Shown here: in pieces, positions 13,981 to 16,252 of the stretch
How the letters are laid out: every line of letters starts with the position of its first letter
How positions within the stretch are numbered: position 1 is the stretch's first letter
Sequence record: OR670062.1
Source: Escherichia phage SKA5
DNA length: 37,572 nt
Reading direction: 5' to 3' (one strand)
Translations under genes and position numbers: made by a program
The notes under the pieces: model-generated
What the model was told of the DNA's origin: nothing
The model's database searches: none
What the model saw: the letters and a program-made list of their open reading frames with translations, nothing else

Positions 13981-14517
13981 ATGTCATTTATTAAAACTTT
14001 TTCCGGGAAGCATTTTTATTATGACAGGATAAATAAAGACGACATCGTTATTAACGATATCGCGGTTTCCCTTTCAAATATCTGTCGCTTTGCAGGACAT
14101 CTTTCACACTTCTACAGTGTCGCCCAACATGCGGTGCTTTGCAGCCAGCTGGTGCCGCAGGAATTTGCTTTTGAAGCTTTAATGCATGATGCAACAGAAG
14201 CATATTGCCAGGACATCCCCGCACCACTGAAACGACTTCTTCCTGACTATAAACGTATGGAAGAAAAAATAGACGCCGTAATCCGTGAGAAATACGGGTT
14301 ACCTCCTGTTATGAGCACGCCAGTGAAATATGCCGATCTCATTATGCTGGCAACCGAACGCCGCGATCTCGGGCTTGATGATGGCTCTTTCTGGCCTGTA
14401 CTGGAAGGTATCCCGGCAACAGAGATGTTCAAAGTGATTCCACAGGCACCGGGCCATGCCTATGGGATGTTTATGGAACGTTTTAACGAGTTATCGGAGT
14501 TACGCAAATGCGCATGA
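13981..14517 (+). CDS. HD-domain phosphohydrolase (YfbR-like 5'-deoxynucleotidase family)
   Basis: H, HD and D metal-binding motifs (AQHAV, ALMHDATE). GGAG SD 6 nt before the ATG at 13981; the ORF-track start 13954 is GTG without an SD. Confidence 0.7.
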   Translation: MSFIKTFSGKHFYYDRINKDDIVINDIAVSLSNICRFAGHLSHFYSVAQHAVLCSQLVPQEFAFEALMHDATEAYCQDIPAPLKRLLPDYKRMEEKIDAVIREKYGLPPVMSTPVKYADLIMLATERRDLGLDDGSFWPVLEGIPATEMFKVIPQAPGHAYGMFMERFNELSELRKCA

Positions 14518-14870
14518 ATGTTTTCGAAATGGAAGGGTTTCTTCGTGGGAGATGTGTACCGCGAGATCTGAAAGTGAATGAAACAGATGCTGAATACCTG
14601 GTACGTAAATTCGATGCGCTTGAAGCTAAATGTACAGCACTGGAAAACAAAGTAATACCAGTGTCAGCTGAACTGCCGCCAGCGAATGAAAGTGTTCTGT
14701 TATTTGATGCTAATGGAGAAGGCTGGCTAATTGGCTGGCGTTCTCTCTGGTATACATGGGGGCAAAAAGAAACCGGAGAATGGCAGTGGACATTTCAGGT
14801 CGGGGACCTTGAAAACGTCAATATCACTCACTGGGCAGTAATGCCAAAAGCACCGGAGGCTGGAGCATAA
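14508..14870 (+). CDS. DUF551-like phage protein
   Basis: 120 aa with a Trp-rich C-terminal region (WLIGWRSLWYTWGQKETGEWQW). Start overlaps the stop of the HD gene; the alternative ATG at 14514 gives an ATGA overlap. Confidence 0.5.
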   Translation: MRMNVFEMEGFLRGRCVPRDLKVNETDAEYLVRKFDALEAKCTALENKVIPVSAELPPANESVLLFDANGEGWLIGWRSLWYTWGQKETGEWQWTFQVGDLENVNITHWAVMPKAPEAGA

Positions 14871-15679
14871 TGACCACATTTACCGATAAAGAACTGATTA
14901 AAGAAATCAAAGAACGAATCAGCAGCATGGACGTGCGAGACAATGTTGAGCGCCGTGCTTATGAAATTGCTCTGGCATCGCTGGAAGAGGATCCGGTGGC
15001 ATGGCTGCATTCAGACAATGGCTTAGGTATTCCGGCAATAACCAGGAGTAAAAACATTGCTGACAGTTGGTTATCAAAGGGCTGGTATGTTCAGCCGCTA
15101 TATATAGCCAAGCCAGTGCCGGTGGTGCCAGATGCTCGTCCATCTTTAAATAATGGCATAGTCGGTTTTGATGAAGGCTGGAACGCCTGCCGAGCTGCCA
15201 TGCTCTATGGTGCCGTACCTGCAAGCCAGGCTTACAAGTTGCCACAAACGCAGTTTAAACAGGTTGCTGACCTCTACGAAATGCAATTTGATGACGGTCG
15301 CACTTGTACCTTTCACACTGATGCGCAAAAGGCTGTGCAATGGCTTCAGGCGTGCGACGGAAACAGGGTTCAGGAATACGTTAAGCTGGAACGATTGCAG
15401 AACGCACTGTCTGGCAACTCTCCGGTAACTCCGGATGGTTGGGTTATGGTGCCGAAGAGACTAACAGCCGAGAACGGCGCTAAGGGGGCGCTATCCGGTG
15501 AATTTTCAGAAACTACGTTTATAAGCTGCCTGGAATGCTTTGGCGATGATGATTGCGATACCTGTGACGGGAGCGGACGTATTGAAATTAAAGTGCCAGT
15601 CACGTGGTCGACCATAAAATCTATCTGGGATAAAGGTATCGAGTATTTTGCAGCAAAACCATCACAAGAGGTGAAGTGA
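14870..15679 (+). CDS. hypothetical protein with C-terminal Cys cluster (zinc-ribbon-like)
   Basis: 269 aa; C-terminus CLECFGDDDCDTCDGSGR. Translationally coupled on both sides. Confidence 0.5.
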   Translation: MTTFTDKELIKEIKERISSMDVRDNVERRAYEIALASLEEDPVAWLHSDNGLGIPAITRSKNIADSWLSKGWYVQPLYIAKPVPVVPDARPSLNNGIVGFDEGWNACRAAMLYGAVPASQAYKLPQTQFKQVADLYEMQFDDGRTCTFHTDAQKAVQWLQACDGNRVQEYVKLERLQNALSGNSPVTPDGWVMVPKRLTAENGAKGALSGEFSETTFISCLECFGDDDCDTCDGSGRIEIKVPVTWSTIKSIWDKGIEYFAAKPSQEVK

Positions 15680-16252
15680 TGAACAACTTAATGATCGACC
15701 TTGAGACGATGGGGAAAAATAAGGATGCACCGATCGTTTCCATTGGCGCGGTGTTCTTCACTCCAGAAACCGGAGACATCGGACAAGAATTCTATACGGT
15801 TGTTAGCCTGGAAAGTGCTATGGGGCAAGGAGCTACACCTGACGGCGATACCATCCTGTGGTGGTTGAAACAAAGCCCTGAAGCACGAGCTGCAATCTGT
15901 ATTGATGATACTTTGTCGATCAGCGATGCTCTCTCAGAACTAAATCATTTCATTAACCGGCACGCAGACAATACGAAATATTTAAAAGTCTGGGGTAACG
16001 GAGCCACCTTCGACAACGTAATTTTACGTGGAGCTTATGAGCGAGCAGGACAAATCATTCCCGTGGGCATACTGGAATGACCACGATGTACGCACGATCG
16101 TTACGCTTGGGCGTTCCATCGGATTCGACCCCAAAATGGACATGCCTTTCGATGGCGAACGGCACAACGCCCTGGCTGATGCCCGTCATCAGGCAAAATA
16201 TGTTTCCGCTATCTGGCAGAAATTAATTCCTGCCACCAGCACAGAATTATGA
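15679..16252 (+). pseudogene. DnaQ-like 3'-5' exonuclease, frameshifted
   Basis: The 5' ORF (to 16080) carries the Exo I motif MIDLET. The 3' ORF (16028..16252), in the +1 frame, carries the Exo III motif HNALADA. The frames switch near 16040-16060, next to short AAA/CCC runs. Confidence 0.6.

What the first reader, a model, noticed from the sequence alone, without database searches (positions are those of the whole stretch)
13981..16252. Translationally coupled early-left cluster: HD phosphohydrolase, DUF551-like, Cys-cluster protein and DnaQ-like exonuclease
Four genes with overlapping stop/start codons follow the structured region. An HD-domain nucleotidase-like enzyme next to a 3'-5' exonuclease suggests nucleotide or nucleic-acid processing. 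Possible roles include recombination accessory, modulation of host nucleotide pools, or degradation of defence signalling nucleotides. None of this is established. The 269-aa protein has a zinc-ribbon-like C-terminus and is otherwise unassigned.
Basis: inference. Interest (0 to 1): 0.35.

Follow-up and report, generated by a model that had tools for sequence, protein, structure and literature searches.

The report
Known prophage yfdR-yfdS cluster, exonuclease broken
This is the well-known yfdR-yfdS-yfdT-type accessory gene block of SfV/CPS-53-like E. coli prophages, ordinary except that this copy lacks yfdP-yfdQ and its fourth gene, a T4 DexA-like exonuclease, is broken by a private frameshift.

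Summary
The four same-strand ORFs with overlapping stop and start codons exist, but only three are intact. Gene 1 (13981-14517) is YfdR, 174/178 identical to E. coli K-12 YfdR. YfdR is an HD 5'-deoxynucleotidase that also binds DnaA. Gene 2 (14508-14870) is YfdS (116/120 identical; DUF551). Gene 3 (14870-15679, 269 aa) is a mosaic YfdT-family protein. Its C-terminal domain has four invariant cysteines and replaces the DUF551 domain found in close relatives. Gene 4 is a DEDDh exonuclease (PF16473); its nearest solved relative by sequence is T4 DexA. It is split at 16057-16059, where ATT replaces the TG of every intact relative aligned here, giving fragments 15679-16080 and 16028-16252. This allele appeared in 0 of 584 matching E. 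coli records and in no scanned viral or reference-genome contig. The intact allele appeared in 87 viral contigs. The window also lacks yfdP-yfdQ, and yfdQ was required for the published replication-inhibition phenotype. The HD-exonuclease adjacency is not a fixed pairing: only 15 of 65 YfdR loci carry the exonuclease, and all 15 also carry the PrtN-type excisionase. Nothing supports a role in degrading signalling nucleotides. This is known biology in a partly decayed copy, so interest is low.

The parts
13981..14517 (+). yfdR: HD-domain 5'-deoxynucleotidase and DnaA-binding protein, 178 aa, intact
   Evidence: 174/178 identical to K-12 YfdR. PHROG 318 'deoxyribonucleoside 5' monophosphate phosphatase', E 4e-109. 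RefSeq annotates identical-length relatives as yfdR, 5'-deoxynucleotidase. The metal-binding residues H50, H69-D70 and D119 align with the solved HD protein 2gz4.
14508..14870 (+). yfdS: 120 aa with an N-terminal coiled-coil-like segment and a C-terminal DUF551 domain, intact
   Evidence: 116/120 identical to K-12 YfdS. PF04448 covers residues 50-117 at 22.1 bits against a cut-off of 22. PHROG 583, E 5e-82. Residues 29-56 match only designed coiled coils in the PDB, at non-significant E-values.
14870..15679 (+). yfdT-family mosaic gene, 269 aa: YfdT-like leader (1-42), variable and central blocks, conserved NALSGNSPVTPDGW junction, then a 4-Cys C-terminal domain (about 178-269) ending in the shared tail SQEVK
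   Evidence: 34/42 identical to the N-terminus of K-12 YfdT. PHROG 60, E 5e-50. 99% identical 269-aa proteins exist in E. coli and Klebsiella. Relatives 96% identical over the first 74% end in DUF551 instead. The Cys domain occurs in at least 1313 clusters at 50% identity and sits at or near the C-terminus in most listed hits. C220, C223, C229 and C232 are invariant.
15679..16080 (+). 5' fragment of the DexA-like DEDDh 3'-5' exonuclease (133 codons, motifs D7/E9 and D112), ending prematurely at TGA 16078-16080
   Evidence: PF16473 positions 1-126 of 177, 171 bits. Alignment to four intact 573-bp genes. Residue positions.
16057..16059 (+). The lesion: ATT where intact relatives have TG (net +1 base), shifting the reading frame
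   Evidence: Seen in the alignment. The allele is absent from 584 matching E. coli records (best identity 97.5%), from IMG/VR viral contigs and from the GTDB species-representative genomes. The intact allele is present in 87 viral contigs.
16028..16252 (+). 3' fragment of the same exonuclease in the +1 frame. It carries W132 and the catalytic H162/D167 (numbering of the repaired protein)
   Evidence: PF16473 positions 122-177, 71.5 bits. Residue positions. An internal ATG at 16037 has GGAG only 3 nt upstream, so independent translation is doubtful (inference from the sequence).
13869..13871 (+). Junction where 1,303 bp carrying yfdP and yfdQ are absent compared with close relatives
   Evidence: Window 12001-13870 aligns to L005 602-2471, and window 13870-17000 aligns to L005 3775-6904. 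The junction lies between two GC hairpins. The same junction is present in E. coli CM2010-0578/1, locus L004.
16289..16570 (+). PrtN-family excisionase gene immediately downstream. This is context: it is the module that the exonuclease travels with
   Evidence: PF11112 at 81.8 bits and PHROG 1300 'excisionase'. It co-occurs with the exonuclease in 65 of 66 loci and in 15 of 15 loci.

Best explanation
The region is a mosaic stretch of accessory genes in the early-left arm of an SfV-like temperate myovirus. It lies between the CI repressor and the excisionase and integrase, and it is homologous to yfdR-yfdS-yfdT of the E. coli K-12 cryptic prophage CPS-53.

Shown:
- Gene identities, mosaic structure, the frameshift, and the absence of yfdP-yfdQ.

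Shown elsewhere for the 97-98% identical K-12 proteins (PMC4776307):
- YfdR is an HD 5'-deoxynucleotidase whose nucleotide affinities are much lower than YfbR's.
- Multicopy yfdQ + yfdR + (yfdS or yfdT) inhibits initiation at oriC.

Inferred:
- After induction or infection, the intact form of the block helps the phage take over the host by damping host replication initiation. YfdS and YfdT-type proteins would act as interchangeable helper or adaptor proteins.
- The DexA-type exonuclease is a separate module that travels with the excisionase.
- In this window the block is partly decayed. yfdQ, which was required for the published phenotype, is missing. The exonuclease is a pseudogene whose first fragment lacks the catalytic His/Asp motif. 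Only YfdR, YfdS and the 269-aa YfdT-family protein are likely to be made.
- The short stop/start overlaps and the conserved gene-end sequences (for example SQEVK, which covers the next gene's GAGGTGA ribosome-binding site) provide translational coupling. They probably also serve as the recombination joints that generate the mosaicism.
For: Identity to K-12 YfdR, YfdS and the YfdT N-terminus. Published functions. Gene order cI ... yfdP-yfdQ-yfdR-yfdS-variable-(exo)-xis-int in SfV, mEp460, vB_EcoM-720R4 and E. coli prophages. The window is SfV-like across its first 25 kb, the part queried. Some part of the block is present in 3,490 of 5,426 complete E. coli genomes. Domain swaps are visible in alignment A1. 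The gene set between yfdR and the exonuclease varies across 66 and 65 viral loci. The frameshift is shown and is a private allele. The yfdPQ gap is shown.
Against: The DnaA-inhibition phenotype was seen only on overexpression. Its authors say it could be an artefact, and deleting yfdQRST had no effect on initiation. The window has no yfdQ, so that phenotype may not apply here. No promoter was identified: the sigma-70 scan did not exceed chance. A terminator-like hairpin at about 13720-13768 lies upstream, so the timing of expression is not established. No function is known for the 269-aa protein, and structure prediction failed. The frameshift could be a sequencing error.
Confidence: 0.6

Rival explanations
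1. The frameshift is an error in sequencing or assembly. The real phage would then carry an intact 190-aa exonuclease, making this a complete four-gene cluster.
For: The allele was found in no other sequence. Apart from the lesion, the exonuclease gene is identical to the L004/L005 allele in the alignment, so it shows no further decay.
Against: The change is a substitution plus an insertion (TG to ATT) outside any homopolymer run, which is not a typical base-calling error. Private inactivating mutations are common in prophages. Relatives also carry annotated frameshifted neighbouring genes.
Confidence: 0.25
2. The exonuclease and the HD enzyme work as a pair. The DexA-like exonuclease would release dNMPs from DNA, and YfdR would dephosphorylate them, reshaping host nucleotide pools.
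For: T4 DexA scavenges host DNA, and NCBI names YfdR a 5'-deoxynucleotidase. In loci chosen for this exonuclease allele, YfdR lies upstream in 65 of 66. Both DUF551 and the Cys domain also occur fused to PF04447 dATP/dGTP pyrophosphohydrolases.
Against: Sampling from the YfdR side, only 15 of 65 loci have the exonuclease. SfV and K-12 CPS-53 have none. The exonuclease instead tracks the PrtN-type excisionase (15/15 and 65/66). YfdR's nucleotide affinities are reported as much lower than YfbR's. Removing phosphate from dNMPs would waste precursors the phage needs. In this window the exonuclease is broken.
Confidence: 0.08
3. The exonuclease is a prophage-borne defence gene of the HREX/EcD type that degrades 5hmC-modified DNA of T-even phages. 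The cluster would then serve superinfection exclusion.
For: An E. coli DexA homologue, EcD, protects against T4 and cuts T4 DNA but not unmodified DNA. The Trp equivalent to DexA W152 is present as W132.
Against: EcD is a different protein: its primers encode MIDTET..., whereas this one starts MNNLMIDLET. EcD has Ala at the position of DexA D90, whereas this protein keeps Asp (D83) and Ser (S80) in the phmmer alignment. The gene is frameshifted here. PADLOC gave only a weak generic DEDDh hit.
Confidence: 0.07
4. YfdR, or the cluster as a whole, degrades cyclic or oligonucleotide immune signals of systems such as CBASS, Pycsar, Thoeris or type III CRISPR, as an anti-defence function.
For: Only general knowledge that some HD-superfamily enzymes cleave cyclic dinucleotides. 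This is a lead from memory, not a test.
Against: The sequence falls with YfbR-like 5'-deoxynucleotidases (PF12917, PHROG 318, NCBI naming). No profile search returned an anti-defence phosphodiesterase family. The 98% identical K-12 protein is described as a low-affinity homologue of the nucleoside-monophosphate phosphohydrolase YfbR.
Confidence: 0.03

Closest known systems
yfdQ-yfdR-yfdS-yfdT of E. coli K-12 cryptic prophage CPS-53 (Noguchi & Katayama 2016, PMC4776307)
   Same: YfdR is 174/178 identical and YfdS 116/120 identical. The stop/start overlaps are the same. The third gene shares the YfdT N-terminus (34/42) and the C-terminal tail. The block sits in the same position upstream of an excisionase.
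   Different: The window lacks yfdP and yfdQ. The third gene is 269 aa with extra central blocks and a 4-Cys domain, against 101 aa for YfdT. A frameshifted DexA-like exonuclease and a PrtN-type excisionase replace ypdJ and torI.
Shigella phage SfV orf28-orf32 early-left region (NC_003444)
   Same: The overall phage type is the same. orf30 corresponds to yfdR and orf29 to yfdS, at about 95% DNA identity.
   Different: SfV keeps orf32/orf31 (yfdP/yfdQ), has the short orf28, lacks the exonuclease, and uses a different xis and int.
Phage T4 DexA (PDB 8KEL) and the E. coli HREX exonuclease EcD (PMC12153337)
   Same: DexA is the best solved-structure match to the repaired exonuclease (E 7e-11). The DEDDh residues and the W152 equivalent are conserved.
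   Different: The window's protein is 190 aa against 227 aa, it is only distantly related, and here it is frameshifted. It keeps the Ser and Asp that DexA uses to form tetramers, whereas EcD has Ala at the Asp position. No activity data exist for this protein.
Lambda and Stx-phage Ea22 and the exo-xis region proteins (PMC10834534)
   Same: They occupy the same genomic niche, in the early-left operon just before xis. They have the same mosaic architecture: a shared N-terminus, a coiled coil, and swappable C-terminal domains that include DUF551.
   Different: No significant Ead/Ea22 Pfam match was found for YfdS or the 269-aa protein. The pro-lysogenic role of Ea22 has not been tested for these proteins.
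E. coli YfbR and Agrobacterium Atu1052 (PDB 2gz4), HD-domain 5'-deoxynucleotidases
   Same: The HD fold and the H...HD...D metal-binding motif are shared.
   Different: The window's protein is not a YfbR orthologue: NCBIfam NF003009 scored 19.9 bits against a cut-off of 122. PF12917 scored 24.5 bits, just under its cut-off of 25.9. Nucleotide affinity is reported as much lower.

Membership tests
YfdR (prophage HD-domain 5'-deoxynucleotidase and DnaA binder) | Near-identity to the characterised K-12 protein over its full length | tested here: met
   174/178 identical with no gaps. RefSeq names equal-length relatives yfdR.
YfdR (prophage HD-domain 5'-deoxynucleotidase and DnaA binder) | HD-superfamily metal-binding residues H...HD...D | tested here: met
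   H50, H69-D70 and D119 are present and align with 2gz4.
YfdR (prophage HD-domain 5'-deoxynucleotidase and DnaA binder) | dNMP phosphatase activity and binding to DnaA domain I (Phe46) | not testable with these tools
   Reported for the K-12 protein. The four substitutions in the window (K16R, N151K, L154Q, D169E) have not been tested.
YfbR-like Pfam family PF12917 / NCBIfam NF003009 (YfbR equivalog) | Score above the curated cut-off | tested here: not met
   PF12917 scored 24.5 against 25.9. NF003009 scored 19.9 against 122. It is therefore a relative of YfbR, not an orthologue.
YfdQRST replication-initiation inhibitor set | Presence of yfdQ + yfdR + (yfdS or yfdT), the minimal set for the phenotype | tested here: not met
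   yfdQ and yfdP are absent. A 1,303-bp gap lies at window position 13870.
DUF551 (PF04448) | Pfam gathering score | tested here: met
   The 120-aa protein scored 22.1 bits against 22, over residues 50-117. This is only just above threshold, but the protein is 97% identical to YfdS, which the literature cites as a DUF551 protein.
Rv2179c-like / DexA-type DEDDh 3'-5' exonuclease (PF16473) | Domain match and the DEDDh catalytic residues | tested here: met
   The two fragments scored 171 and 71.5 bits and together cover model positions 1-177. D7, E9, D112, H162 and D167 are present.
Rv2179c-like / DexA-type DEDDh 3'-5' exonuclease (PF16473) | A single uninterrupted reading frame encoding all motifs | tested here: not met
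   A +1-base lesion at 16057-16059 leaves motif III in another frame.
HREX / EcD-type anti-phage exonuclease | Loss of the DexA D90-equivalent tetramerisation residue (Ala in EcD) while keeping the 5hmC-recognition Trp | tested here: not met
   D83 aligns with DexA D90 and S80 with S87. The Trp equivalent, W132, is kept. The pairwise alignment is distant, so this result is tentative.
DnaJ-type cysteine-rich zinc finger (CxxCxGxG repeats) | Significant profile match, or two full CxxCxGxG motifs | tested here: not met
   There is one exact motif (C229-DTC-DGSG) and one partial motif (C220-LEC-FGDD). A profile search against DnaJ 1exk gave E 0.92, and there was no Pfam hit. Zinc binding is untested.
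Phage enzymes that degrade immune signalling nucleotides (Acb1, Apyc1 and similar) | Sequence or fold membership in one of those families | tested here: not met
   No such family was returned by Pfam, PHROGs, NCBIfam or the PDB sequence searches for any of the four products. No dedicated anti-defence library was available.

The most novel reading that the evidence does not exclude
DUF551 and the invariant 4-Cys domain may be interchangeable targeting modules. Both sit at the C-termini of mosaic early-left proteins and of MazZ-like dATP/dGTP pyrophosphohydrolases (PF04447). They could bring different cargo, including YfdR's helpers, to one host target such as the DnaA/DnaB initiation complex or the replisome. 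That would explain why either YfdS or YfdT suffices in the published assay.
Probability: 0.1. Interest if true: 0.45.

Novelty: already known. Interest (0 to 1): 0.12.

Why it matters
It matters little beyond correct annotation. The region should be labelled yfdR, yfdS, a yfdT-family mosaic gene, and a frameshifted DexA-like exonuclease pseudogene, not a new nucleotide-signalling cluster.

Two open points remain modest in scope. First, the physiological role of the widespread YfdR block is still known only from overexpression experiments. Second, the 4-Cys C-terminal domain is a conserved, portable and uncharacterised domain, present in at least 1,313 protein clusters at 50% identity and sometimes fused to dATP/dGTP pyrophosphohydrolases.

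Tried and rejected
- **Structure prediction.** AlphaFold2 on the 269-aa protein with 29 homologues gave mean pLDDT 43.9. The Cys domain alone with 42 homologues gave pLDDT 52.3. Both are too poor for fold searches, so none were run.
- **PDB searches.** A sequence search for the 269-aa protein and a profile search for its Cys domain gave nothing significant. The DnaJ Cys-rich domain scored only E 0.92.
- **Defence-system library.** The PADLOC scan gave only a weak generic DEDDh hit, 21.9 bits.
- **Programmed +1 frameshift.** Slippage on CCC-G at 16060-16063 would restore ...GQIIPWAYWNDHD.... I rejected this as a designed feature because the allele occurs nowhere else.
- **Promoter and terminator scan.** The counts did not exceed the shuffled expectation.
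- **Repeat search.** Nothing relevant was found inside the four genes.
- **Papers not held.** Zimmerman et al. 2008 (YfdR kinetics) and Allison et al. 2002 (SfV genome) could not be read. YfdR's enzymology is therefore cited second-hand from PMC4776307.
- **EcD sequence.** Only its cloning primers were found.
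Full report
**What is in the sequence**

The + strand between 13981 and 16252 carries consecutive ORFs:
- 13981-14517 (178 aa from the ATG; the mechanical ORF begins at GTG 13954)
- 14508-14870 (120 aa)
- 14870-15679 (269 aa)
- 15676/15679-16080 (133-134 aa)
- 16028-16252 (74 aa, in a different frame)

They are ATGCGCATGA (10 nt), TAATG (1 nt) and GTGATG (1 or 4 nt). Each start is preceded by a GGAG or GAGG sequence. The same overlaps occur in E. coli K-12 yfdR/yfdS/yfdT.

**Identity of genes 1 and 2**

Megablast places the region in SfV, mEp460, vB_EcoM-720R4 and many Stx-converting phages. 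Some part of it matches 3,490 of 5,426 complete E. coli genomes. RefSeq annotates the closest relatives as follows:
- yfdR (5'-deoxynucleotidase, 537 bp)
- hypothetical protein (363 bp)
- hypothetical protein (810 bp)
- 3'-5' exonuclease (573 bp)
- PrtN-family protein

Against K-12 CPS-53, gene 1 is 174/178 identical to YfdR and gene 2 is 116/120 identical to YfdS.

Profile searches agree:
- YfdR hits PHROG 318, 'deoxyribonucleoside 5' monophosphate phosphatase', at E 4e-109.
- It falls just under the YfbR-like Pfam cut-off (24.5 against 25.9).
- It is far below the YfbR equivalog cut-off.
- It aligns with the solved HD protein 2gz4, with H50, H69-D70 and D119 in place.
- YfdS reaches the DUF551 gathering score (22.1 against 22).

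**Gene 3**

The 269-aa product has no Pfam, NCBIfam or PDB sequence match, but it is not an orphan. A homology search returned 6,903 proteins, and it belongs to PHROG 60.

It is a mosaic:
- Its first 42 residues match K-12 YfdT (34/42).
- Its last residues (SQEVK) match YfdT's tail.
- Relatives that are 96% identical over the first three quarters end in a DUF551 domain instead.
- The swap point is an almost invariant NALSGNSPVTPDGW segment.

The C-terminal domain (about residues 178-269) has these properties:
- It occurs in at least 1,313 clusters at 50% identity and sits at or near the C-terminus in most listed hits.
- It has invariant C220, C223, C229 and C232, in the pattern CxxCFGxxxCxxCDGxG.
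- In 4 of 10 long examples it is fused to a PF04447 dATP/dGTP pyrophosphohydrolase.
- Its resemblance to the DnaJ zinc finger is not significant (E 0.92).
- AlphaFold models were too poor to use, with pLDDT 43.9 and 52.3.

**Gene 4 is broken**

The two ORFs 15679-16080 and 16028-16252 match positions 1-126 and 122-177 of one Pfam domain, PF16473 (Rv2179c-like DEDDh exonuclease). Four intact 573-bp relatives read ATC-TGC-CCG-TGG where the window reads ATC-ATT-CCC-GTG-G. ATT at 16057-16059 replaces TG, a net gain of one base.

The first fragment keeps D7, E9 and D112 and then stops at 16078-16080. The catalytic H162 and D167 are in the other frame.

The frameshift allele was found nowhere else:
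- None of 584 matching E. coli records has it; the best identity is 97.5%.
- It is absent from IMG/VR viral contigs and from the GTDB species-representative genomes.
- The intact 32-mer occurs in 87 viral contigs.

A private allele argues against a programmed frameshift. It is either a recent inactivating mutation or a sequence error.

The repaired protein's best solved relative is T4 DexA (8KEL, E 7e-11).

**Missing neighbours**

Compared with close relatives, 1,303 bp carrying yfdP and yfdQ are absent, with a clean junction at 13870 between two hairpins. The same junction exists in E. coli CM2010-0578/1. About 24 of 65 sampled YfdR loci also lack yfdQ. This is therefore a natural variant and not an artefact.

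**What the literature says**

Noguchi and Katayama (PMC4776307) reported the following:
- Multicopy yfdQ + yfdR + (yfdS or yfdT) suppresses over-initiation and inhibits oriC initiation.
- Purified YfdR binds DnaA, with Phe46 important for the interaction.
- Deleting the genes has no effect on initiation.
- The overexpression effect might be an artefact.
- Citing Zimmerman 2008, YfdR's nucleotide affinities are much lower than YfbR's.
- SfV carries homologues.

The Ea22 paper (PMC10834534) describes the same kind of mosaic architecture in the lambda exo-xis region, with a swappable DUF551 C-terminus.

Kang et al. (PMC12153337) show that T4 DexA scavenges host DNA and that an E. coli homologue, EcD, defends against T4. 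EcD is a different protein from this one. At the DexA D90 position, where EcD has Ala, this protein keeps Asp.

**Is the HD-exonuclease adjacency meaningful?**

I sampled loci from both sides.
- Loci chosen for this exonuclease allele: YfdR lies upstream in 65 of 66, and the PrtN excisionase is present in 65 of 66.
- Loci chosen for YfdR: only 15 of 65 have the exonuclease, and all 15 also have the PrtN excisionase.

SfV and K-12 CPS-53 have YfdR without the exonuclease. The exonuclease therefore belongs to the excision and integration end of the arm. YfdR belongs to a separate module, and the genes between them vary freely. This argues against an obligate enzyme pair.

**Mechanism judged most likely (confidence about 0.6)**

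This is an accessory early-left block whose intact form interferes with host replication initiation through YfdR-DnaA binding, helped by YfdQ and by YfdS or YfdT-type proteins. A DexA-type exonuclease has been added alongside the excisionase module. In this window the block is partly decayed.

Shown: gene identities, mosaicism, the frameshift, and the yfdPQ gap.

Inferred: timing of expression, the takeover role, and the helper role of the 269-aa protein.

No promoter was identified. A near-threshold STnc100-like element with a terminator-like 3' hairpin lies just upstream.

**Verdict**

The genes are already known, apart from the uncharacterised but widespread Cys domain. Nothing supports a signalling-nucleotide or recombination role. 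Interest is low.

Noticed in passing
window 13547-13769 (+): There is a full-length match to Rfam STnc100, just under threshold (45.2 bits against a gathering score of 47; E 1e-8 in the local search). It ends in a long GC hairpin plus a U-run at about 13720-13768. That hairpin also gives a weak DicF-like hit (21.8 bits). The element lies directly upstream of the yfdR block and would terminate transcription coming from upstream unless it is read through.
   Followed up: partly
window 13768-13856: A 25-nt inverted repeat (84% complementary, 39-nt spacer) lies between the STnc100-like element and the yfdPQ deletion junction. Its function is unknown.
   Followed up: no
window 16831-17250 (-) and 17247-17819 (-): Two overlapping minus-strand genes lie between the excisionase and the integrase. 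One encodes 139 aa (PHROG 19071). The other encodes 190 aa, and RefSeq calls its identical-length relative a Panacea domain-containing protein. Together they look like a toxin-antitoxin pair.
   Followed up: no
window 13869-13871; L005 2472-3774: The yfdP-yfdQ module (1,303 bp) is cleanly absent, with the break between two short GC hairpins. The same junction occurs in E. coli CM2010-0578/1, and roughly a third of sampled YfdR loci lack yfdQ.
   Followed up: yes
window 15401-15676 (residues 178-269 of the 269-aa protein); proteins P0162, P0188, P0205, P0241: The 4-Cys C-terminal domain is a portable domain. It is found in at least 1,313 clusters at 50% identity and is sometimes fused to a PF04447 dATP/dGTP pyrophosphohydrolase, the same enzyme family that DUF551 is reported to accompany.
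   Followed up: partly
L004 7354-7458 and L005 7977-8081 (E. coli relatives): In the closest chromosomal relatives, the prophage end abuts a partial tRNA-dihydrouridine synthase gene, which suggests integration at a dusA-type site. I did not check whether the window's integrase (18266-19363) is of that type.
   Followed up: no
window 13029-13304 (+) and 13222-13467 (-): Two small conserved ORFs of unknown function (PHROG 3195 and PHROG 3311) overlap convergently between the repressor gene and the STnc100-like element.
   Followed up: no
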